A stretch of 64,000 nucleotides of DNA from contig JAHFNS010000001.1 in NCBI GenBank assembly GCA_023267215.1, positions 174,710-238,709 on the forward strand. Reading direction: 5' to 3'. The position numbers and the translations under genes were made by a program. Positions 14 to 63,326 of this stretch are shown one piece after another (within the stretch, counting starts at the first letter, position 1; each line of letters begins with the position of its first letter). Origin of the DNA: Candidatus Nomurabacteria bacterium. Its GTDB lineage: Bacteria > Patescibacteriota > Minisyncoccia > Phycocordibacterales > UBA9973. The notes under the pieces are model-generated. The model worked only from the letters and a program-made list of their open reading frames with translations, searched no databases and had not been told where the DNA came from.

Positions 14-1438
14 TTAATAACCTTCTATAAACCTATATAGAAGTCTGACTGGAGTGCCTAGGGCGCCGCCTGCGAGGTTTTCGCCTTGTATTGCAGTCAT
101 ACGAGGGGCCATGTCTATGTGTATCCATTTATGACCTTTTATGAATTGGTAGAGAAAAATAGCTGCATAGATAGCTCCGCCATATCCCCCATCTTTATTT
201 TTAACATTCGTCCAATCCCCGAGCGAACCTTTGATTTCATTTTCATATTCTTCCCACATAGGCAATCTCCAAACATAATCCCCTGTCTCTTCTCCAGCTT
301 TTTCTATTGCTTTAGATAAATTGTCATCATCAGTAAAAATTGCCGAAGCTCTCTCGCCAAGTGCGACCATCGCAGCACCAGTCAAAGTCGCAATGTCTAT
401 AACGACTTCTGGTTTATATTTTTGAGAATAAGTTAATGCATCAGCTAAGATGACTCTGCCTTCGGCATCAGTATTTAAAATCTCAATCGTTTTACCGGAC
501 ATTGAGCGAATGACATCTCCTGGACGATAACTTTTCCCCGATGCCATATTTTCAACGGCCGGTATGAGCCCGATGACATTCTTTTTCAATTTCATTTTTG
601 CAACCAGAGCGAGGGTGTGGATGACAGCGGCACCACCAGACATATCCATATTCATACCGAGAAGACTATTTGAGGGTTTCAAATTTATTCCTCCAGTATC
701 AAATGTCACACCTTTGCCGACGAGGACAATAGGTTTCTCATTTTTCTTTCCGCCAGCGTATTCCATAATGATAAATTTAGATTCTTCGTCTGAACCACGG
801 CCGACAGAAAGTATCGCTCGCATTTTTTGCTTTTCCATTTCTTTTTCACCAAGTACAGTGACTTTCACAGGTAGATTTTTTACGGCTTCTTTTGCTTTTT
901 GCGCCAAAATTTGAGGAGTCATATCTCCACCTGGCATATTTGCAAGTGTCCTAGTCTTGTTCACTTCTTCTGCAATAGTGTGGCCTTTAAGAATGGATTT
1001 TTCAATATCCCCGAAAGACGGTCTTTGAGGAGTTCCCAAAAGACCGTCTTTGGGAGAATCTATACCAGAAATAATAATTTCTTTTACAAAATTAAAACCT
1101 TCTTCTGTCGGTGTTTTATATTCCACAAATTCATAATTTGCAAAATCTAGTTGAGAACCGATGAGTTCTCCCAATTCTGTATCTGTTAATTTAATATTTT
1201 TAAATTTAAAATCAGAAAAATCAAAAGCAATCTTTTCCGCTTTTATTCCTTTTGCCATTGTCACCATTTTACGGACAAGCAAAAAAAGCTTTCTCAAAGT
1301 CATTTTCTCATCGCATTTCAAAAAGAATGTTTTTGCACCATTTTCTTTTATAATCTCATCTTTATTTTTAGAACCGACAGATACAAAAAGAACTTCTCCT
1401 TTTACATCTTTTGGGTTGTTTTTAAATGCTATTTTCAT
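14..1438 (-). CDS. pepA: Leucyl aminopeptidase, M17 family
   Basis: 474 aa; M17 signature NTDAEGRL region (ILNTDAEGRVILADALTY) and conserved C-terminal catalytic domain. Confidence 0.85.
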   Translation of the reverse strand: MKIAFKNNPKDVKGEVLFVSVGSKNKDEIIKENGAKTFFLKCDEKMTLRKLFLLVRKMVTMAKGIKAEKIAFDFSDFKFKNIKLTDTELGELIGSQLDFANYEFVEYKTPTEEGFNFVKEIIISGIDSPKDGLLGTPQRPSFGDIEKSILKGHTIAEEVNKTRTLANMPGGDMTPQILAQKAKEAVKNLPVKVTVLGEKEMEKQKMRAILSVGRGSDEESKFIIMEYAGGKKNEKPIVLVGKGVTFDTGGINLKPSNSLLGMNMDMSGGAAVIHTLALVAKMKLKKNVIGLIPAVENMASGKSYRPGDVIRSMSGKTIEILNTDAEGRVILADALTYSQKYKPEVVIDIATLTGAAMVALGERASAIFTDDDNLSKAIEKAGEETGDYVWRLPMWEEYENEIKGSLGDWTNVKNKDGGYGGAIYAAIFLYQFIKGHKWIHIDMAPRMTAIQGENLAGGALGTPVRLLYRFIEGY

Positions 1439-10242: not shown

Positions 10243-11586
10243 ATGTCTCTAAAATTTTACAATACTTTAACTAAAGAAAAGGAAGAATTCGTACCGATTG
10301 ATAAAAAAAAGGTAAGTTTTTTTGTGTGTGGTCCTACCGTATATGATTACTCTCATTTAGGACATGGAAAAACATACACACAATTTGATGTTCTTGTTAG
10401 AGCTTTAAGATACTTTGGATATGAAGTTTTTTATCTACAGAATATTACAGATATAGATGATAAAATCATAAATCGTGCCAAAGAACAAAACATCTCTCCG
10501 AAGGAGCTATCAGAAAAATTCGAAAAAATTTATTTAGAAGACATGACAAGTTTAGGCAATACATCAATCAATAAATATGCAAGAGCTACTGATTATATTT
10601 CACAGATCATCAAACAGATTGAGACACTGATTGAAAAAGGCTATGCCTATAAAACAAGCGATGGTATTTATTTTGAAACAGCAAAATTTAAGAATTATGG
10701 AAAACTTTCCGGCCGAACAGAATTAAAAGAAGATGATGCCGTGTCTCGTATTGATGAATCAAAAGAAAAAAAGGGTTGGAATGATTTCTGTCTCTGGAAA
10801 GCGGAAAAAGAAGGCGAACCATCTTGGGATACACCTTTTGGTAAGGGACGTCCAGGTTGGCATATTGAAGATACTGCCATTACTGAAACTTTTTTCGGTC
10901 CACAATATGATATCCATGGAGGTGCAAGAGATCTAATTTTTCCTCATCACGAATGTGAAATTGCTCAAATGGAATCTGCTTCGGGTCGTTCTCCGCTTGT
11001 GAAATATTGGCTACACACTGGATTTCTGAATATAGATTCAAAAAGAATGGGTAAATCAAATGGTAATTTTAAGACACTTCGAACGATGATTGAGTTTGGT
11101 ATTTCCCCTATGTCTTTCCGTTTTTGGGTTTTAATGGCTCATTATCGTTCACCCATGAATTGGAACCAAGAAGCCTTAGAAGGCGCTGAAATAGCCCTAA
11201 AACGCTTATATAAGCTCTATATAGAGCTAGGTAAAGACTCTGGTGAAATAAGCACAAAATACCAGCAAAAGTTCAAAGAATACCTAGAAGACGACTTAGA
11301 TACACCGAGGGCAATTTCCCTACTTTGGGATGTGATAAAAGATGAGGACCTTTCTCCCGCCGATAAAAAAGCAACCATTCTTGATTTTGATAAAGTCTTT
11401 GGACTTGGTTTTGAAAATTTGAAAACAGAAAAAATTCCGGAAGAAATAATAAAAATTGCAGAAGAGCGCGAACTCGCTCGTAAAAATAAAGACTGGAAAA
11501 AATCTGACGAACTAAGAGATAAAATAATTTCCCTAGGATATGAAATAAAAGATTCTTCCGACGGCTACAAAATTTCTAAGATTTAA
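10243..11586 (+). CDS. cysS: Cysteinyl-tRNA synthetase
   Basis: 447 aa; CGPTVYDYSHLGHGKTY (HIGH) and KMGKS (KMSKS) motifs. Confidence 0.95.
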   Translation: MSLKFYNTLTKEKEEFVPIDKKKVSFFVCGPTVYDYSHLGHGKTYTQFDVLVRALRYFGYEVFYLQNITDIDDKIINRAKEQNISPKELSEKFEKIYLEDMTSLGNTSINKYARATDYISQIIKQIETLIEKGYAYKTSDGIYFETAKFKNYGKLSGRTELKEDDAVSRIDESKEKKGWNDFCLWKAEKEGEPSWDTPFGKGRPGWHIEDTAITETFFGPQYDIHGGARDLIFPHHECEIAQMESASGRSPLVKYWLHTGFLNIDSKRMGKSNGNFKTLRTMIEFGISPMSFRFWVLMAHYRSPMNWNQEALEGAEIALKRLYKLYIELGKDSGEISTKYQQKFKEYLEDDLDTPRAISLLWDVIKDEDLSPADKKATILDFDKVFGLGFENLKTEKIPEEIIKIAEERELARKNKDWKKSDELRDKIISLGYEIKDSSDGYKISKI

Positions 11587-12560
11587 TTATCCCAATTAAA
11601 ATTTCTACCAAAATGTCCCCATTTGGAAGTTTCAGCAAAATTTACATTTTCTAAATCTAAAAAATTTTTTATACCTTTAGGAGTCAAATTATATTCTGTT
11701 TGTGTATTTATTTTTATTTCCACACCATCTAAAATTGCTACAGCCATCACTGGCTCTGGTTTACCAATAGCATAAGCAAGTTTTACAAATACTTCTTTAG
11801 CTTTACCACTTTTTATAAAATCTACTGCTATCTTCCGAGCGATGTATGCTCCACTTCTATCTACTTTCGTATAATCTTTTCCAGAAAAAGAACCACCACC
11901 AATAGGAATTTCTGGTCCATAATTATCAATCACTAACTTCCTACCAGACAAACCTGTATCCGCATCAAAACCACCTTGAATCCATTCACCTGCAGGATTG
12001 ATTAAATACTGTGCCCCGTCGCTCGAGAGCGACTGGGGTTTTTTTGTTTCTATTATATTTTTTACTAATGGTAATAACTCTTCATTTTTTGTATTTTGGA
12101 AACTCACCACAACTGTCTCCACTTCACCATTATTTAATGTCACTTGTACTTTTCCATCATAGGGATATTTTTCAAAAACCCTCTCACATAAATCTCTTGC
12201 AAGTTCATACTCAGGTGGCATCATACTTTCCGTATCACTCGTCGCATATCCTTTCATTATTCCTTGGTCTCCTGCTCCACCTATATCTACTCCGAGTGCA
12301 ATACTAGGACTTTGTTTTGATAAATTAATTATTATTTTAAAATCTTCTCCGACTATTTCTTTTACTATTTTTTCTAATAGAGGAGACGCATGGCTCGTCA
12401 CTTCACCATTGATAGTTATCAACTTATGTCCACCCATCACTTCCACAGCCACTCGGCTATTTTTGTCTTCCGCCAAATAAGCATCTAAAATAGAATCAGC
12501 AATAAAATCACAGATTTTATCAGGGTGTTTAGGGCTCACAAATTCGGCTGTTTTTATCAT
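11583..12560 (-). CDS. metK: S-adenosylmethionine synthetase (short form)
   Basis: 325 aa; SPKHPDKICDFIADSILDA (GHPDK motif), INPAGEWIQGGFDADTGLSGRKLVIDNYG and GGGSFSGKDYTKVDRSGAY conserved MetK blocks; contains a GC-rich in-frame hairpin at 12014..12038. Confidence 0.8.
   Translation of the reverse strand: MIKTAEFVSPKHPDKICDFIADSILDAYLAEDKNSRVAVEVMGGHKLITINGEVTSHASPLLEKIVKEIVGEDFKIIINLSKQSPSIALGVDIGGAGDQGIMKGYATSDTESMMPPEYELARDLCERVFEKYPYDGKVQVTLNNGEVETVVVSFQNTKNEELLPLVKNIIETKKPQSLSSDGAQYLINPAGEWIQGGFDADTGLSGRKLVIDNYGPEIPIGGGSFSGKDYTKVDRSGAYIARKIAVDFIKSGKAKEVFVKLAYAIGKPEPVMAVAILDGVEIKINTQTEYNLTPKGIKNFLDLENVNFAETSKWGHFGRNFNWDN
12014..12038. repeat. GC-rich hairpin CCCCGTCGCTC-GAG-AGCGACTGGGG inside metK, in frame
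   Basis: Near-perfect 11-bp inverted repeat encoding KPQSLSSDGA in a variable MetK loop. Confidence 0.5.
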
Positions 12561-14085: not shown

Positions 14086-14123
14086 ATGTGGATAACTGCC
14101 CCTAAGCTGGGCTTAGGGGCACT
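14086..14123. repeat. DnaA-box-like TGTGGATAA followed by palindrome GCCCCTAAGC-TGG-GCTTAGGGGC (member of the CCTAAGC palindrome family)
   Basis: Perfect 10-bp stem; near-identical copy at 41006..41044 with an inverted loop; sits at the 3' end of Cys-rich paralog 1. Confidence 0.6.
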
Positions 14124-22232: not shown

Positions 22233-24308
22233 CTATTCTAATACTTTTTTCAAAACATCTTCTGGTACTTCTTTAATTTCTTTTTTTTCTGTCACAATAT
22301 TTGCTGTATCTATTAAACTTTTTAATTTATCCATATCACTCCTACTTGCTGATTTATCTTTCAAGATATTTTTATGTTCAGGTTTTTCATTTTTTAATTC
22401 ACTCAGTGAAATTGCTGGAGGTTTAGGCACAACTATATTTCCCCTCTCCTTGGTAAGGAGAGGGTCAGGGTGAGGTAAATTTGTTTCATTCAACGCTTTA
22501 TCTAAAACTTCTTTTAATGCTGAATTATCTTTAGCTCCTAAAGGTTTTGATTTTATTTTAAATGGTTCAAAAGAAGGTTTTTTACTGAAAACTTTTTTAA
22601 TAGTTGAAAATATTTTAGGAGAAACAGGTGCTACTTTTTTAATTGGTGCAATATTTTTAATTGGAACAGCTTTACCAAATTCATAACACACAGGTTTATC
22701 TTCTCTGTATCTATCTTCTCCTTCTTTCACATCTATCTCTTCGTTTGTTATATCCTTGTTCTGAAATTCTATTCCTAAATCTGCCAATGGTTTATAAAAT
22801 TTTGTTTCATCTTGTTTTATTTGTTTCATTGAACCAGCCACTGGTTTCAATTCTCCTGCTTTTATTTTAGAGATGCAATCTTTACAATAAACAGCTCGGC
22901 CTGGTTCTGGTTTAAAAGGCACTAACGTATCTTTTTTACAAATAGAACAAACTGCCGGAAATTTCTCCATACTACCTATATCACTTTCGTTACCAAGAGA
23001 CATCCCGCTCCAATTATTAATTTCTCTTTCCACTACTTCTCTTGGTCGACAATAAAGTTCTCGAGAAGTCTTAATAACTTCATCTTCAATATCTTTGTTA
23101 CCAGATTTTACCATCGGCGGAAGAGTTTTAGCAGAAAATGGACGCGAAGAAACACCATCTATCATTAATTTCAAATAAATTTTGTAATTTGGCAAACTGA
23201 CAATATCTTGAGGGGTAAATTCTGGTTCAAATTCTTTTTCTAAAAATTCTGCATCATCTGCACCAACCCTAAAAATCATCATCGTGCCAACGTTACCAAA
23301 AATAGAATCTCTCACACTTGAATTTTTATCTGAAATTAATTGAGCAGTGTATTGATGTGCCACGGTCAAATTTAATCTATATTTTCTAGCCTCGGACAAG
23401 ATACCAGCAAAAGCCTCCGTCACGAAATTTTGAAATTCATCTACATAAAGATAAAAATCTTTTCTATCATCTTCTGGAATACGCACACGTTCCATTGCAG
23501 CCAATTGAATCTTAGTAATTATCATCCCTCCTAAGAGTGCGGAGTTGTCTTCACCGATACGCCCTTTGGAAACATTCACTAAAAAAATTTTCCCTTCATT
23601 CATTATGTCAAAAACATTTATGGTGCTTATGGATTGTCCGACTATATTTCGAATAATAGAAGTGGAAAGAAATTGTCCGACTTTGTTTTGAATAGGTGCA
23701 ATAGCTTCATTTCTAAATTTCTCTTGCCAGGCTTCATATTCATGAACCCAAAAAGCTTTAATGACTGGATCTTTTAAATTCGAAATTATTTTTTGACGAT
23801 AATCTTTATCCACCAACATTCGAGGTATACCTAATAGTGTCGAACCTGGAGTATCAAGCAAAGCTAAAATAGTATTATTTAAAATATATTCCATACGGGC
23901 AGACCAAGCATTTGCCCAAATTTTCGTAAAGATACCCATCAATCCAGAAGCCACTAAATGTTTATACTTTGGATCAACAAGTTCAAGTACATTGAAACCA
24001 ATATGAAAATCTGCATCGGCTGGATTAAAATAAATAACATCTTTCATGCGGTGTGGCGGAATGGCAGAAAGAATGGCTTCCACATTTTCTCCGTGCGGGT
24101 CAACCATACAAACGCCGTCACCATTTTCAATGTTCTGAATGATCATATTAAACATCAAAGCAGATTTACCAGTACCAGACTTTCCAAGAATATAAACATG
24201 CTGACGCCTGTCTTTGCGCTTGATACCAAAAAGCTGGTTTTTATCCCTGTAAGTAGTGTAACCAATATAAGTAAGTTCTTTATTTTTAGGTATTTCCTTC
24301 AGGTCCAT
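22233..24308 (-). CDS. P-loop ATPase of the FtsK/HerA/VirD4 superfamily, paralog B, with a C-terminal CxxC...CxxC zinc-ribbon extension
   Basis: 691 aa; Walker A ILGKSGTGKS, Walker [13 protein letters not shown]; about 45% identical to paralog A over the ATPase core; C-terminal CSICKKDTLVPFKPEPGRAVYCKDC; contains an in-frame GC-rich element at 22441..22476. Confidence 0.75.
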   Translation of the reverse strand: MDLKEIPKNKELTYIGYTTYRDKNQLFGIKRKDRRQHVYILGKSGTGKSALMFNMIIQNIENGDGVCMVDPHGENVEAILSAIPPHRMKDVIYFNPADADFHIGFNVLELVDPKYKHLVASGLMGIFTKIWANAWSARMEYILNNTILALLDTPGSTLLGIPRMLVDKDYRQKIISNLKDPVIKAFWVHEYEAWQEKFRNEAIAPIQNKVGQFLSTSIIRNIVGQSISTINVFDIMNEGKIFLVNVSKGRIGEDNSALLGGMIITKIQLAAMERVRIPEDDRKDFYLYVDEFQNFVTEAFAGILSEARKYRLNLTVAHQYTAQLISDKNSSVRDSIFGNVGTMMIFRVGADDAEFLEKEFEPEFTPQDIVSLPNYKIYLKLMIDGVSSRPFSAKTLPPMVKSGNKDIEDEVIKTSRELYCRPREVVEREINNWSGMSLGNESDIGSMEKFPAVCSICKKDTLVPFKPEPGRAVYCKDCISKIKAGELKPVAGSMKQIKQDETKFYKPLADLGIEFQNKDITNEEIDVKEGEDRYREDKPVCYEFGKAVPIKNIAPIKKVAPVSPKIFSTIKKVFSKKPSFEPFKIKSKPLGAKDNSALKEVLDKALNETNLPHPDPLLTKERGNIVVPKPPAISLSELKNEKPEHKNILKDKSASRSDMDKLKSLIDTANIVTEKKEIKEVPEDVLKKVLE
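22441..22476. repeat. GC-rich palindromic element, family 1 (CCCCTCTCCTTGGTAAGGAGAGGGTCAGGGTGAGGT), inside the CDS in frame
   Basis: Perfect 11-bp inverted repeat; encodes PDPLLTKERG in ATPase B. Confidence 0.6.
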
Positions 24309-24357: not shown

Positions 24358-24393
24358 AAAAAAAAGACGGAAGCCTTGCTTCCGTCTTTTTTT
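24358..24393 (-). terminator. Intrinsic terminator downstream of dnaK (GACGGAAGC-CTT-GCTTCCGTC plus T-run)
   Basis: 9-bp perfect stem flanked by A-run and T-run (bidirectional). Confidence 0.7.
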
Positions 24394-24394
24394 C

Positions 24395-26416: not shown

Positions 26417-26974
26417 ATGTCAAGTAAAAATGAATATTCTAATAAAATACTTAAAATTCTAGGTGAAAAACCAGTTATTCCTGTAGACGAAGTAAAAAGA
26501 ATTCACCTCTCCCCAACCCCTCTCCTTGATAAGGAGAGGGGCGAAGGGGTGAGGTCTGGCTATGCCTTAAATCGTTCAATAAAAAACTTAATTGAATCTG
26601 GATGCGTAGATATGATTCAATCTGATAATCAAAATTATTTAAAATTAACCAAAAAAGGGAAAAATAAATTAAACTCTATTAAGCTTGAAGGAGATCAAGC
26701 TCTCGTATCTAACACTTGGGATGGTTTGTGGAGAATAATAATTTTAGATATTCCAGAAAACAGAAAAAACGAAAGAGAAAGTTTACGTTATCTTTTAAAG
26801 AAAGCCGATTTCGTTTGTATTAAGAATACTGTTTGGATATCACCTTTCCCTTATGAACATCTTTTTACAAATATCAAAAAAGATTTAGGTCTCGGTACTG
26901 AACTGATGATTATCGTCACCGACAAAATTGACGAGGAAACAAAACTCGCTTTTTTGAAAAGTCTCAAAAAATAG
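26417..26974 (+). CDS. Hypothetical protein: N-terminal winged-helix-like region plus a C-terminal Cas2/VapD-like segment
   Basis: 185 aa; WDGLWRIIILDIPENRKNERESLRYLLKKADFVCIKNTVWISPFP resembles the Cas2 beta1-alpha1 core pattern; contains an in-frame GC-rich element. Confidence 0.4.
   Translation: MSSKNEYSNKILKILGEKPVIPVDEVKRIHLSPTPLLDKERGEGVRSGYALNRSIKNLIESGCVDMIQSDNQNYLKLTKKGKNKLNSIKLEGDQALVSNTWDGLWRIIILDIPENRKNERESLRYLLKKADFVCIKNTVWISPFPYEHLFTNIKKDLGLGTELMIIVTDKIDEETKLAFLKSLKK
26504..26555. repeat. GC-rich nested palindromic element, family 1 (CACCTCTCCCCAA-CCCCTCTCCTTGATAAGGAGAGGGG-CGAAGGGGTGAGGT), in frame
   Basis: Inner perfect 11-bp stem plus outer complementary arms; encodes LSPTPLLDKERGEGV. 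Confidence 0.65.
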
Positions 26975-45238: not shown

Positions 45239-45727
45239 TTATCTTTCTTTATTTAAATTTTCATCAGAAATTCTTCTAATTGGTTTTTCAAGAATATTAA
45301 GAAAAATAAAAATCAAAAGTACTAAAATAGTTGATATAATTGCAAGATTAAAAAGTCCGAATCCAGCAGCCATACCAATGCCTGCAGTCACCCAAAGTCC
45401 ACCAGCGGTCGTAAGCCCCCTTGTACGAGAATCTCTGAACATTATCATACCAGCGCCAAGAAAGCCGATACCCACAATAATATTAGAAGCTATCATTACA
45501 GGATTAAAACCTGGTGTATTTATATATTTTTCTCCCATAGTCTCAGAAATCATTATAAAAAGAGCTGCTCCCATAGAAACAAGGGCATGAGTTTTCATTC
45601 CCGCTTCTTTATGTACCAAAAGACGTTCAACACCAATAAGCATTCCTAAAACTATCGCTACTATTAATTTTAAAAAAATATCACTATTTTGTATAAAAAA
45701 TTGTTCCATATAATAATCATACAACAA
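45239..45727 (-). CDS. MgtC/SapB-family membrane protein
   Basis: 162 aa; LIVAIVLGMLIGVERLLVHKEAGMKTHALVSMGAALFIM MgtC signature. Confidence 0.75.
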   Translation of the reverse strand: MLYDYYMEQFFIQNSDIFLKLIVAIVLGMLIGVERLLVHKEAGMKTHALVSMGAALFIMISETMGEKYINTPGFNPVMIASNIIVGIGFLGAGMIMFRDSRTRGLTTAGGLWVTAGIGMAAGFGLFNLAIISTILVLLIFIFLNILEKPIRRISDENLNKER

Positions 45728-46910
45728 TTCCTCCGCCTAAACAAACATCTTTATCATATATGACACAAGATTGCCCAGAGGCCACCAATATAGGTTTTTT
45801 AAATATAACCTCTGCGGAAGCCTTGCTTCCGCAAATTACATTACAGGTCAAAAATTCACTATGATAACGAATTTGAGCTGTGTAAGTTTTATCTTGTTTA
45901 GGAGTAGTAAAGATCCAATTTATATTACTTATTTTAATTTCTTCCCCTCCTTGATGAGGAGGGGTGCCCTTTAGGGTGGGGTGGTGCTTTTTAGAATTAC
46001 CACCCCCTGCCCCCTCCTCCACGAGGAGGGGGTTAAGATTTTTGTCTTGCGACACATATAAAATATTTTTCTTTATATCTTTACCAACTATATAATAGGC
46101 TCCATCATTAGGACTTTTTTTAATAATAGTAAAACCATGACGTTCTCCTAAAGTATGGAAAACTACTCCATCGTGATATCCAATTTCTTCTCCTTTTTCA
46201 TTCCCCGCCTCTGACGGGGCAAGCAAAACTTTTCCCTTTTTTTCTTTAATATAATGTTTCAAAAAATCTTTCAAATCTACAGCCCCTAGAAAGCAAATAC
46301 CCTGGCTATCTTTTTTAAGAGCGACTGGCAATTTGAATTTTTTAGCAAGCTTGCGGACTTCTGTTTTTTTTAGATGACCTATAGGAAATAAAATTCTACT
46401 TAATTGCTCTTGCTTCAATGTCCACAAAAAATATGATTGATCTTTTGAAGGGTCAATGCCTTTTCTTAAATTTTTGGAAAAAGTCGGCCCTTTTTGAATT
46501 CTTAAGGGCCGGCCTTCTCCAAAAATTTGTGCATAATGCCCTGTTGCGATGTAGTCAGCTCCCATAGCAATTGCTTTTTTAAGAAAAGCCCCAAATTTCA
46601 CTTCTTTATTACACATCACATCAGGATTCGGCGTTCTCCCTCTCTTATATTCGGCAATCATATAGTCTGCAACTTCTTTTTTATACACGTCACTCAAATC
46701 AAAAGTAAGAAATGGAATATCCAAAAAAGCTGCGACGCGCATAGCGTCCAGGCGTTCTTCTTCTTCATTACATTCCAAGAAATCCGGATGCCAAGTACGT
46801 ATAAAAACCCCGACTACGTCATAGCCTTGTTTTTTTAATAATGCTGCACTTACAGCAGAATCAACACCACCAGATAAACCAACAAATACTACTTTTTTAT
46901 TCTTTTTCAT
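45717..46910 (-). CDS. mnmA: tRNA-specific 2-thiouridylase MnmA
   Basis: 397 aa; PP-loop VGLSGGVDSAVSA; conserved catalytic Cys; carries an ~85-nt GC-rich in-frame insertion encoding EEGAGGGNSKKHHPTLKGTPPHQGGEE. Confidence 0.85.
   Translation of the reverse strand: MKKNKKVVFVGLSGGVDSAVSAALLKKQGYDVVGVFIRTWHPDFLECNEEEERLDAMRVAAFLDIPFLTFDLSDVYKKEVADYMIAEYKRGRTPNPDVMCNKEVKFGAFLKKAIAMGADYIATGHYAQIFGEGRPLRIQKGPTFSKNLRKGIDPSKDQSYFLWTLKQEQLSRILFPIGHLKKTEVRKLAKKFKLPVALKKDSQGICFLGAVDLKDFLKHYIKEKKGKVLLAPSEAGNEKGEEIGYHDGVVFHTLGERHGFTIIKKSPNDGAYYIVGKDIKKNILYVSQDKNLNPLLVEEGAGGGNSKKHHPTLKGTPPHQGGEEIKISNINWIFTTPKQDKTYTAQIRYHSEFLTCNVICGSKASAEVIFKKPILVASGQSCVIYDKDVCLGGGIVV
45944..46032. repeat. Composite GC-rich palindromic element (CCCCTCCTTGATGAGGAGGGG ... 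GGTGG..CCACC ... CCCCCTCCTCCACGAGGAGGGGG), in frame inside mnmA
   Basis: Two hairpins related to the family 1 core plus a third stem; strongly GC-rich against the surrounding coding sequence. Confidence 0.6.
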
Positions 46911-50590: not shown

Positions 50591-50632
50591 TAGTTATATT
50601 TTAATATAAAAAAGAAAATAAAGAAAGAAAAT

Positions 50633-50675
50633 ACCCCTAAGCTCCGCTTAGGGGTTCCAGAAGCCCAGCTTATTT
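50633..50675. repeat. CCCCTAAGC-TCCG-CTTAGGGG palindrome plus an AGAAGCCCAGCTTA fragment (CCTAAGC family)
   Basis: Perfect 9-bp stem; the adjacent half-copy matches the arms of the 39254 and 41021 copies. Confidence 0.55.
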
Positions 50676-59276: not shown

Positions 59277-60521
59277 TCAATTATACCATTTTTTTAATTT
59301 TTGCAAAATCTGAGATAAGGCTTTAATTGTGTAATCTATATCAGATTTAGTTGTCTTAACTCCTAGAGAAAAACGTAAACCACCTATTTCAGTATTCTGT
59401 TCTGGACGGATAGCGTCTATAACATACGAACCTTCTTTACGAGAGCTTTCACAAGCACTTTTTGCTGAAGCCATTATTCCCTTCGCTGAAAGTTCTATCA
59501 CCAGAAGTTCACTCGGGATTTTTGGAAAAGTAATATTTATATTATTTGGTAATCTATTTTCTAAATCTCCGTTAATAATCATCCCCGTGTCAAGGGGCAT
59601 CCTTGACAGTTTATTAACAAAATAATCTCGCAAAATTGTTAAACGTTTATTTTCTTTTTCTTTATTTTTTTGTACAGATTTTAAAGCAGAAGAAAATTTA
59701 ATAATTGCTGGTAAATTCTCTGTCCCCGGACGCAAACCATTTTCTTGATCTCCCCCACCAAACATTGGCGAAAGCGGCACAGTTTTTCTCTTATAAAGCA
59801 CCCCGACCCTCCCTGACCCTTCTATTTTAGAACCAGAAATTGAAAGCAAGTCAACTCCCAATTTTTCTACATTTAAATCTAAATAATTTACTGCTTGCAC
59901 AGCGTCTATGTGAAATAGAGGAAAGGAAAACTCGTCAAAAATCTTTTTTCCAGGTCCTCGGTTCTCGGGGTCCCCTACCCCCGCCAGACCATGTAAAAAA
60001 GTTTTTTGCCGAGTTTTCCTGCAATACCTAATTTCTTTTGCAATTTCTTTTATAGGCTGAATAATACCAATTTCATTATTCGCATACATTACTGAAATAA
60101 GTACAGTATTTTTCTTTATTTCTTTTTTTATTTTTTTAGGATCTATTATTCCATTTTTTTCAACTGACACTATCGATATTTCTGCAAATTTCCTTTTCTC
60201 TAACATTCTAAAAGTTTCGAGCACTGAAGGATGTTCTATGTTGGTGGTGATGATATGTGGCTTAGTGAAGGCCTTTCTTTCGCCTAAAAGCGAAGGAAAG
60301 ACTTTCGCTAATACGACTCCCTGAATCGCAAGATTGTTTGATTCTGTTCCTCCACTTGTAAAAATTATTTCTTCAGATCGACAATTCAAACTATTAGCGA
60401 CCTCCTTTCTCGCATTTTCAAGCCTTTTTTTAGCTTCTACTCCTTCTCTATGTACAGAACTAGAATTAGCAGAGAACCCTGCTGCATAATCTATGTATAT
60501 ATTTTTATTTGATTTAGCCAT
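59277..60521 (-). CDS. Cysteine desulfurase (class V aminotransferase, IscS/NifS-like)
   Basis: 414 aa; PLP-fold IIFTSGGTESNN, HIDAVQAV, SGSKIEG (Lys) motifs; contains a GC-rich in-frame insertion at 59951..59990. Confidence 0.8.
   Translation of the reverse strand: MAKSNKNIYIDYAAGFSANSSSVHREGVEAKKRLENARKEVANSLNCRSEEIIFTSGGTESNNLAIQGVVLAKVFPSLLGERKAFTKPHIITTNIEHPSVLETFRMLEKRKFAEISIVSVEKNGIIDPKKIKKEIKKNTVLISVMYANNEIGIIQPIKEIAKEIRYCRKTRQKTFLHGLAGVGDPENRGPGKKIFDEFSFPLFHIDAVQAVNYLDLNVEKLGVDLLSISGSKIEGSGRVGVLYKRKTVPLSPMFGGGDQENGLRPGTENLPAIIKFSSALKSVQKNKEKENKRLTILRDYFVNKLSRMPLDTGMIINGDLENRLPNNINITFPKIPSELLVIELSAKGIMASAKSACESSRKEGSYVIDAIRPEQNTEIGGLRFSLGVKTTKSDIDYTIKALSQILQKLKKWYN
59951..59990. repeat. 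GC-rich insertion inside the cysteine desulfurase CDS, in frame
   Basis: CAGGTCCTCGGTTCTCGGGGTCCCCTACCCCCGCCAGACC encodes GLAGVGDPENRGPG just before the conserved HIDAVQAV block. Confidence 0.45.
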
Positions 60522-63124: not shown

Positions 63125-63197
63125 CCGCCCTTAGCTCAGCTGGTAGAGCAGATCCCTCTTAAGGATAAGGTCGAAGGTTCGATCCCTTCAGGGCGGA
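63125..63197 (+). tRNA. tRNA-Lys (anticodon CTT) with an unusual C1-G72 first pair
   Basis: Manual fold: acceptor CCGCCCT/AGGGCGG, D arm GCTC-AGCTGGTA-GAGC, anticodon loop CTCTTAA, T arm GAAGG-TTCGATC-CCTTC. Confidence 0.75.
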
Positions 63198-63326
63198 CAA
63201 TTTAAAAAGTTTATGTTATAAAGTTTTTAAATTGTCCGAGACGGAGCATGACGGTGCGAGTCCGGGTCGGGGAAGTTTTTAGTAAAAAACTATTCCTGAC
63301 GACAAGTACAAATAGAGTTTATATAT

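What the first reader, a model, noticed from the sequence alone, without database searches (positions are those of the whole stretch)
12014..12038. Additional GC-rich in-frame hairpin insertions in metK and the cysteine desulfurase gene
metK carries CCCCGTCGCTC-GAG-AGCGACTGGGG at 12014..12038, encoding KPQSLSSDGA immediately before the conserved INP(A/T)G block. The cysteine desulfurase carries a 40-nt GC-rich segment at 59951..59990, encoding GLAGVGDPENRGPG just before HIDAVQAV.

These differ in sequence from family 1 but show the same pattern: a GC-rich hairpin, in frame, in a variable loop of a conserved enzyme. This suggests more than one family of coding-tolerated palindromic elements.
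Basis: seen in the sequence. Interest (0 to 1): 0.5.

Follow-up and report, generated by a model that had tools for sequence, protein, structure and literature searches.

The report
Hairpin DNA inserted inside conserved enzymes
Two essential enzyme genes of an AT-rich, ultra-small (CPR/Paceibacteria) bacterium carry short GC-rich hairpin DNA inserted in frame into tolerant protein loops; this resembles the palindromic elements in Rickettsia genes, and one of the two occurs flipped in either direction at the same spot in related species.

Summary
Both observations are real and far beyond chance. The metK hairpin (12014-12038) is the core of a clean 30-nt, 10-codon insertion (12009-12038). It is absent from the closest relatives and from about 90% of related species, and it is patchily distributed. 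It is conserved at synonymous sites and related to intergenic terminator-like hairpins in sister genomes. The desulfurase GC segment (59951-59990) is the core of a 95-nt palindrome (59925-60019) that adds about 26 residues to a hypervariable loop. The same 38-nt core sits at this site in related lineages in both orientations and in several reading frames. Its AT-rich arms differ between lineages but are inverted repeats within each. One sister genome has a second identical core copy outside the gene. All alleles keep the reading frame, so the inserts are translated. Best reading: selfish or neutral hairpin DNA, elaborated by replication template switching (arm extension, arm homogenisation, spacer inversion), that survives only in permissive loops. 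This is a new variant of a known kind (Rickettsia RPEs, intragenic REPs, mitochondrial coding palindromes). I found no report of it in CPR bacteria. The mobilising mechanism and any nucleic-acid-level function remain unresolved.

The parts
11583..12560 (-). metK (S-adenosylmethionine synthetase), 325 aa, reduced CPR form; host gene of insert 1
   Evidence: PDB phmmer E=1e-56 to MetK; Pfam PF00438/PF02772/PF02773 precomputed for the homologues
12009..12038 (-). 30-nt in-frame insertion (codons P175-Q184, PQSLSSDGAQ)
   Evidence: Clean 30-nt gap against the nearest relative P0002 (88.9% aa, 83% nt identity), and the same gap in the independent pair P0016/P0077
12014..12038 (.). 25-nt GC-rich hairpin: 6-bp inner stem, 4-nt loop, one bulged base, 4-bp CCCC/GGGG outer stem
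   Evidence: Folding z = -4 to -5. The right arm and codons CTC, AGC, GAC are invariant in 7 carriers. The covariance model finds terminator-like relatives in other genomes
12039..12049 (+). TTTTTTTGTTT run following the hairpin on the + strand (antisense to metK); together they look like an intrinsic terminator facing the convergent cysS-like gene 10243..11586
   Evidence: The run is not conserved in the other carriers (codons), so function is doubtful
59277..60521 (-). NifS/IscS-type cysteine desulfurase (class V aminotransferase), 414 aa; host gene of insert 2
   Evidence: PDB phmmer E=3e-64, aligned as two blocks, 17-164 and 202-410, with query 165-201 unmatched; PF00266
59925..60019 (.). 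95-nt palindrome spanning the extra loop (about residues 170-199); its base is the conserved gene flank AGGAAAA...TTTTCCT
   Evidence: In the AF2 model the insert lies between helix 157-171 and strand 202-209 with pLDDT 55-58
59953..59990 (-). Conserved 38-nt GC-rich core GGTCTGGC...CCGAGGACC (forward orientation here)
   Evidence: Same core at the same site: forward in L100 and L161, reverse in L160, L162 and L163. One stem pair covaries (CG:3, UA:2, GC:1) and all cells are paired
59925..59950 (.). AT-rich arm of the palindrome (right arm in gene orientation)
   Evidence: About 85% complementary to 59993-60019 in the 20-nt stretch compared by eye. Arms differ between lineages but are inverted repeats within each
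59993..60019 (.). AT-rich arm of the palindrome (left arm in gene orientation)

Best explanation
Both segments are lineage-specific, translated, in-frame insertions of GC-rich stem-loop DNA into permissive surface loops of conserved enzymes in an AT-rich Paceibacteria (CPR) genome. They behave as selfish or neutral hairpin DNA rather than as protein features.

Shown: (i) they are insertions relative to close relatives; (ii) both sites are hotspots that hold several unrelated hairpins in different lineages; (iii) the desulfurase core is one DNA element that is read in different frames and on both strands in different lineages; (iv) a core can exist as a second identical copy elsewhere in a genome; (v) the metK hairpin belongs to a low-copy family whose other members are intergenic terminator-like stem-loops, plus one in-frame copy in another gene; (vi) every allele preserves the reading frame.

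Inferred: GC-rich cores are copied into new sites by an unidentified route. Replication template switching then extends and homogenises the flanking arms from local sequence and flips the spacer. Slippage deletes the hairpins again. Selection only filters for multiples of three, absence of stop codons and a tolerant loop.
For: Insertion status.

Patchiness among near relatives: P0016 and P0077 are 93.5% identical yet differ by the insert, and the query is closest to insert-free P0002.

DNA-level identity independent of frame and strand: six-frame match, then direct DNA alignment scoring 81-88 on the reverse strand against 31-39 on the forward strand for L160, L162 and L163. Forward, reverse, family 1 and short alleles are intermingled in the desulfurase tree.

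Arms: they are lineage-specific, yet each lineage folds at z = -3 to -11.5. Perfect lineage-unique palindromes with no GC core occur in L080 and L088, and the 26-residue baseline alleles have no hairpin. The arms have no copies elsewhere.

Core duplication: a 34-nt, 100% identical second copy in L099 sits in different arms.

Nucleotide conservation beyond protein need: codons CTC, AGC and GAC are invariant, whereas only 25 of 179 identical-residue columns elsewhere keep one codon, and GC3 is 0.19-0.36.

metK hairpin family.

Frame kept: 36 of 36 and 69 of 69 loci.

Loop location.

Generality: all four MnmA hairpins coincide with extra residues.

Mechanistic precedent for arm homogenisation, repeat expansion and spacer inversion by template switching: PMC8604942, PMC8794818, PMC5941160 and the discussion of PMC6649704.
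Against: No transposase, no target-site duplication and no conserved terminal repeats were found. Copy number is low: apart from the variant copy in L099, the desulfurase core was found only at the desulfurase site in 2.17 Mb, and neither element has a second copy in this window. The metK hairpin is always at the identical site and frame, which is odd for repeated independent insertion and fits one old insertion with many losses. Gain and loss could not be polarised. Strong nucleotide conservation of both cores could instead mean a function. Covariation support is thin: one pair in six sequences for the desulfurase core and none beyond shuffles for metK. Template switching is inferred from its signatures, not observed.
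Confidence: 0.6

Rival explanations
1. The hairpins are selected nucleic-acid signals. In metK the stem-loop plus T-run on the antisense strand would terminate transcripts of the convergent, overlapping cysS-like gene. More generally, the conserved cores would be DNA- or RNA-level sites housed inside essential genes.
For: On the + strand the hairpin at 12014-12038 is followed by TTTTTTTGTTT, and the cysS-like ORF 10243..11586 overlaps the end of metK by 4 nt, leaving no intergenic space. Extragenic relatives of the hairpin are canonical terminators. Synonymous-site conservation. The desulfurase core is 85-93% conserved regardless of frame and strand.
Against: The T-run is weak or absent in most other type A carriers (codons). 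Most relatives with the same convergent cysS arrangement have no insert. The distribution among close relatives is patchy. The desulfurase gene has no convergent neighbour. Occurrence in both orientations argues against an mRNA-specific role.
Confidence: 0.2
2. There is no mobility. Each hairpin arose once, or arises repeatedly, purely in situ by template-switch mutation within a fast-evolving loop, and it is inherited vertically with frequent inversion and loss.
For: Lineage-unique perfect palindromes without any shared core occur at the desulfurase hotspot. The arms have no copies elsewhere. The metK insert always has the same site and frame. The desulfurase core profile hits only the desulfurase site.
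Against: There is a second identical core copy outside the gene in L099. The metK hairpin has significant relatives in intergenic regions and in another gene. The multi-copy family 1 element occupies the same desulfurase hotspot in L106 and in several homologous proteins. Conserved GC-rich core sequence would not arise independently from AT-rich local DNA.
Confidence: 0.2
3. The inserts are adaptive protein loops and the hairpin potential is incidental.
For: The PQSLSSDG peptide is conserved among carriers. The inserts lie between secondary-structure elements.
Against: The desulfurase core is translated in at least four different frame and strand combinations, giving unrelated peptides. Hairpin codons are fixed at synonymous sites and are GC-ending in genes with GC3 of about 0.2-0.36. 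Close relatives lack the inserts.
Confidence: 0.05
4. The inserts are not translated. They are bypassed by the ribosome (as with T4 gene 60 or the mitochondrial byp elements) or excised from the mRNA.
For: GC-rich hairpins in an AT-rich genome resemble the byp elements of Magnusiomyces mitochondria (cited in PMC6649704).
Against: All alleles keep the frame: 36 of 36 and 69 of 69 loci, with 18 distinct desulfurase hotspot lengths all multiples of 3 and no internal stop codons.
Confidence: 0.03

Closest known systems
Rickettsia palindromic elements (RPEs; Ogata et al. 2000, from my own knowledge) and intragenic REPs (Di Nocera et al. 2013, PMC3733652)
   Same: Short palindromic DNA inserted in frame in conserved protein genes of a reduced, AT-rich genome, translated and tolerated. 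The same families also occur between genes, and no dedicated transposase is known for the CGTC class.
   Different: No sequence tag (unpaired GTAG or CGTC) and no CCA tail. Much lower copy number in the sample. The same site is reused by several families. The core occurs in both orientations at one site. The arms are lineage-specific. The host is a CPR bacterium.
Coding palindromes in Nematomorpha mitochondrial genes (Mikhailov et al. 2019, PMC6649704)
   Same: (Near-)perfect inverted repeats inside ORFs with both arms translated, dynamic gain and loss, and template switching or arm conversion proposed as the maintenance mechanism.
   Different: There the arms encode conserved protein regions and no extra residues are added. 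Here the palindromes are extra loop sequence built around a GC-rich conserved core, and the genome is bacterial.
Template-switch mutations at inverted repeats (PMC8604942, PMC8794818, PMC5941160)
   Same: Arm homogenisation, repeat expansion and spacer inversion are the three signatures seen at the desulfurase hotspot.
   Different: Those studies describe a mutational process, not a recurring conserved core. The process alone does not explain the GC-rich core or its second copy.
Mobile GC clusters and byp elements of yeast mitochondria (from my own knowledge; byps are cited in PMC6649704)
   Same: GC-rich hairpins invading the coding regions of an AT-rich genome.
   Different: Byps are skipped by the ribosome and need not keep the frame. 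Here the frame is always kept.
Intrinsic (Rho-independent) terminators
   Same: The extragenic relatives of the metK hairpin are a GC stem plus T-run, and the window copy has a T-run on the antisense strand.
   Different: It lies inside a coding sequence, and the T-run is not conserved among carriers.

Membership tests
Rickettsia palindromic elements (RPE) | In-frame insertion in ORFs without disrupting them | tested here: met
   A 30-nt and a roughly 78-nt insertion; the frame is kept in all alleles
Rickettsia palindromic elements (RPE) | Repeated family with many copies per genome, coding and non-coding | tested here: inconclusive
   Only 64 kb of this genome is available. Relatives of the metK hairpin and a second desulfurase-core copy exist in other genomes, but at low density
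Rickettsia palindromic elements (RPE) | Sequence homology to the RPE-1 to RPE-8 consensus sequences | not tested
   No RPE consensus library was available. The host phylum and element lengths differ
REP / REPIN-RAYT (GTAG or CGTC superfamilies) | Unpaired terminal GTAG or CGTC tag beside an 8-13 bp stem (the CGTC class also has A/T first stem pairs and a CCA tail) | tested here: not met
   CGTC in the metK hairpin lies within the stem. GTAG in the window's desulfurase core is not conserved in L161-L163
REP / REPIN-RAYT (GTAG or CGTC superfamilies) | High copy number, mostly extragenic, often as inverted dimers | tested here: not met
   Single copies in the window and a handful in 2.17 Mb
REP / REPIN-RAYT (GTAG or CGTC superfamilies) | Associated RAYT (IS200-like tyrosine transposase) gene | not testable with these tools
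   Only a 64-kb window of the genome is available, and its ORFs were not scanned against Pfam
MITE | Conserved terminal inverted repeats shared by all copies | tested here: not met
   The arms are lineage-specific and locally derived; only the core is shared
MITE | Target-site duplication | tested here: not met
   No consistent duplication at two filled/empty metK junctions
Translational bypass elements (T4 gene 60, mitochondrial byps) | Insert need not preserve the frame and may carry stop codons; matching take-off and landing codons | tested here: not met
   All alleles are multiples of 3 with no stops
Coding palindromes (Nematomorpha type) | Long (near-)perfect inverted repeat within an ORF, both arms translated | tested here: met
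   A 95-nt palindrome in the window, with the longest and most stable stems in L162 and L160
Coding palindromes (Nematomorpha type) | Arms encode conserved regions of the protein | tested here: not met
   The arms are extra residues in a hypervariable loop
Template-switch mutation signature | Arm homogenisation, repeat expansion and spacer inversion between related sequences | tested here: met
   Lineage-specific complementary arms; forward and reverse cores intermingled in the tree. This is comparative inference only
Intrinsic terminator | GC-rich stem-loop followed directly by a T-run, downstream of a gene on that strand | tested here: met
   On the + strand, 12014-12038 is followed by T7 GTTT, about 430 nt after the cysS-like stop codon
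Intrinsic terminator | Terminator features conserved in orthologous copies | tested here: not met
   The T-run is absent or weak in L005, L164, L166 and L167

The most novel reading that the evidence does not exclude
Paceibacteria harbour a previously undescribed system of small GC-rich hairpin cores that move between intergenic (terminator-like) positions and permissive loops of essential genes. They would insert at the apex of local palindromes, and their sequence would be held constant by selection at the DNA or RNA level, or by an unknown dedicated enzyme, independently of reading frame and orientation. That would make conserved enzymes 'safe harbours' for a nucleic-acid signal or a new class of mobile element in CPR bacteria.
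Probability: 0.2. Interest if true: 0.75.

Novelty: new variant of a known kind. Interest (0 to 1): 0.55.

Why it matters
CPR/Patescibacteria proteins are known for odd insertions and reduced sizes. This finding shows that at least some loop insertions are by-products of hairpin DNA dynamics, not protein adaptations. That matters for annotation, for alignment-based phylogeny and for structure prediction of CPR proteins. The desulfurase hotspot is an unusually clear natural record of arm extension, arm homogenisation and spacer inversion around a conserved core inside an essential bacterial gene. It could serve as a test-bed for template-switch mutagenesis and for how selfish palindromes persist in tiny genomes. 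If the cores prove to be mobile or functional, this would be a new element class in a major, poorly studied part of the bacterial tree.

Tried and rejected
- **Distant MetKs only:** comparison with solved MetK structures showed no gap at the segment and would wrongly suggest 'not an insertion'. Close relatives resolved it.
- **Rfam:** the gathering and E-value searches gave only tRNAs and noise.
- **Viral contigs:** an exact scan for the metK core gave 0 hits.
- **Recombination-tract test:** the flanks of type A carriers are no more similar than the rest of the gene, so there is no support for local recombinational spread, though power was low.
- **Covariation in the metK hairpin:** not above shuffles.
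- **Type B metK inserts:** no relatives elsewhere, and the group is heterogeneous.
- **Target-site duplication:** none convincing.
- **CGTC-REP membership:** rejected after reading the family definition.
- **Translational bypass:** rejected on frame conservation.
- **MetK AF2 model:** low confidence over residues 175-228, well beyond the insert, so it is only weakly informative.
- **P0022:** the DNA could not be fetched because the sample file was too large.
- **Not done:** I did not scan the window's ORFs for transposases or SbcCD, because absence from 64 kb would not be informative.

Full report
**Setting.** The window is 32% GC. The homologues of both genes come from Patescibacteria (CPR), class Paceibacteria, mostly 'Candidatus Nomurabacteria'. 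metK is ORF 11583..12560 on the minus strand (325 aa; PDB MetK hits at E=1e-56). The cysteine desulfurase is ORF 59277..60521 on the minus strand (414 aa; PDB NifS/IscS hits at E=3e-64; PF00266).

**Observation.** The sequence CCCCGTCGCTC-GAG-AGCGACTGGGG is at exactly 12014..12038, is 76% GC and encodes KPQSLSSDGA just before YLINPAG. It folds with z = -5.0 on the sense strand and -4.0 on the antisense strand. The segment 59951..59990 is 72% GC and encodes GLAGVGDPENRGPG. However, it is 12 residues upstream of HIDAVQ, and it is only the centre of a 95-nt palindrome, 59925..60019, with z = -7.8 and -6.2. The window holds 10 strong GC-rich hairpins, against 0.1 expected from dinucleotide shuffles. 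Five are intergenic and five are inside ORFs.

**metK is an insertion, but only close relatives show it.** Against distant solved MetKs the segment aligns without a gap. Among the 120 closest homologues (74-89% identity) the modal length is 313 aa, and 88 of 121 aligned sequences have nothing in these columns. Thirteen carry 'type A' (PQSLSSDG[VA]Q) and 20 carry a heterogeneous 'type B'. In species-representative genomes, 63 of 69 loci with anchors have the short hotspot form, and 59 of 69 extracted genes have nothing in the insert columns. The insert-free form includes Kaiserbacteria and Moraniibacteriota. Type A carriers are scattered. The query is 88.9% identical to insert-free P0002 but only 81.7% to the nearest other type A, and P0016 (type A) is 93.5% identical to insert-free P0077. 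DNA alignment of both filled/empty pairs shows a clean 30-nt indel at the same position (12009..12038 in the window) with no convincing target-site duplication.

**The metK hairpin is conserved as DNA and has extragenic relatives.** In seven type A genes, codons CTC, AGC and GAC are invariant and TCG and GGG nearly so. Elsewhere only 25 of 179 identical-residue columns keep a single codon, and gene GC3 is 0.19-0.36. The right arm is fixed. The left arm shows mismatches rather than clean compensation, and covariation is not above shuffles. An nhmmer profile built from the metK copies alone, and a covariance model, find related hairpins outside metK in sister genomes. Intergenic GC-stem plus T-run terminator-like copies occur at L002 5825, L014 5756, L058 44, L110 1805 and L036 11795. 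One in-frame copy lies in a different gene, at L005 2890, in a homologue of window ORF 22233..24308. On the window's + strand the hairpin is followed by TTTTTTTGTTT and faces the convergent cysS-like ORF, which overlaps the end of metK by 4 nt. This T-run is weak or absent in most other carriers.

**The desulfurase hotspot.** Canonical enzymes have 20 residues between NNEIGxIQPI and HTDAVQ. The clade baseline is 26 and this gene has 52. Homologues span 376-456 aa, mostly because of this and a few other hotspots. The peptides at the hotspot fall into recurring types. Six-frame translation of the window element shows that these types correspond to different frames and strands of one DNA sequence. 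DNA confirms this. The 38-nt core GGTCTGGC...CCGAGGACC is forward in the window, L100 and L161, and reverse in L160, L162 and L163, with alignment scores of 81-88 against 31-39 for the wrong strand. One inner-stem pair covaries (CG, UA, GC), and all 66 cells are paired. In the protein tree, forward (21), reverse (19), family 1 (9), other (9) and short (63) alleles are intermingled. P0133 looks like a deletion derivative that retains one arm.

**Arms versus core.** Outside the core, the AT-rich arms differ between lineages but are inverted repeats within each one (for example 21 of 21 in L162). The stem base is always the conserved gene flank AGGAAAA...TTTTCCT. Baseline alleles have no hairpin. 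Several intermediate alleles carry perfect, lineage-unique palindromes with no GC core (L080, L088) or with other cores (L083 and L085: GGACAGTCC; L106: family 1). The arms have no copies elsewhere, whereas the L098/L099 core variant has a second, 100% identical 34-nt copy in L099. That copy lies outside the gene, upstream of an RbfA-like ORF, and is embedded in different arms. So cores are copied between sites and arms are made locally.

**The inserts are translated and tolerated.** Every allele at both hotspots keeps the frame (36 of 36 and 69 of 69 loci where anchors were searched in all frames). There are 18 distinct desulfurase hotspot lengths, all multiples of 3, and no stop codons. In the AF2 models the desulfurase insert is a loop of pLDDT 55-58 between helix 157-171 and strand 202-209, with flanks at 89 or more. 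The MetK insert follows helix 159-173 in a low-confidence region.

**Generality in the window.** The MnmA-like gene (45717..46910) has four hairpin segments, and each coincides with extra residues relative to a solved MnmA. One of them shares 17 nt with an intergenic terminator-like hairpin at 24358-24394. Family 1 has 8 strict copies in 2.18 Mb, four of them in long ORFs.

**Interpretation.** The data fit selfish or neutral hairpin DNA that survives only in frame and in tolerant loops. GC-rich cores are related to the genome's terminator-type stem-loops. Arm growth, arm homogenisation and core inversion are attributed to replication template switching, whose known signatures are exactly these (PMC8604942, PMC8794818, PMC5941160, PMC6649704). 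Three things remain unresolved: how cores reach new sites, whether metK type A reflects recurrent site-specific gain or an old insertion with repeated precise loss, and why both cores stay so conserved. The last point leaves room for a nucleic-acid-level function.

**Comparison with known systems.** In-frame palindromic insertions are known from Rickettsia (RPEs) and from intragenic REPs (PMC3733652). Coding palindromes are known from Nematomorpha mitochondria (PMC6649704). The present elements lack the GTAG or CGTC tags, lack conserved terminal repeats and target-site duplications, and are not bypass elements. Full-text searches found no description of such elements in CPR/Patescibacteria. 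I therefore rate this a new variant of a known kind, of moderate interest.

Noticed in passing
window 45717-46910 (hairpins at 46468-46528, 46201-46226, 45958-46034, 45811-45835): The MnmA-like tRNA thiouridylase gene carries four hairpin segments. Each coincides with extra residues (+9, +7, about +24, +2) relative to solved MnmA 9hlv.
   Followed up: partly
window 24358-24394 and 45811-45835: An intergenic, bidirectional terminator-like hairpin and a coding hairpin in the MnmA-like gene share 17 identical nucleotides (CGGAAGCCTTGCTTCCG). This is the same terminator-to-coding relationship as for the metK hairpin.
   Followed up: partly
window 22441-22465, 26506-26556, 46009-46033; L106 196-218: The 'family 1' nested hairpin (CCCTCTCCTT..AAGGAGAGGG, flanked by CACCTC/GAGGTG) lies in frame in three window ORFs. 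It has 8 strict copies in 2.18 Mb (4 in long ORFs) and fills the desulfurase hotspot in L106 and in about 9 homologous proteins, in two reading frames.
   Followed up: partly
window 14095-14123 and 50632-50656: Two intergenic hairpins share the motif CCCCTAAGC...GCTTAGGGG. They are probably terminators of one sequence family.
   Followed up: no
window 1008-1057: A 50-nt near-perfect hairpin (-31.9 kcal/mol) lies in frame in ORF 14..1438 (peptide SPKDGLLGTPQRPSFGD). Its insertion status was not checked.
   Followed up: no
window 63194-63276: An AT-rich palindrome with 21-nt arms abuts the 3' end of tRNA-Lys and is followed by an unannotated GC-rich island (63242-63276). Rfam gives nothing meaningful.
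   Followed up: partly
L099 7390-7423: A second, 100% identical 34-nt copy of the desulfurase-type core lies outside the desulfurase gene, upstream of an RbfA-like ORF, inside its own different AT-rich palindrome.
   Followed up: yes
MetK hotspot in L017, L003, L015 and proteins P0006, P0014, P0045 and others: 'Type B' inserts occupy the same MetK site. L017 is a different GC-rich hairpin (ACCGCC..GGCGGT). Others are AT-rich, lack a hairpin and resemble the canonical MetK loop (LPAEAL against E. coli LPAEWL). They could be decayed old inserts or remnants of the ancestral loop.
   Followed up: partly
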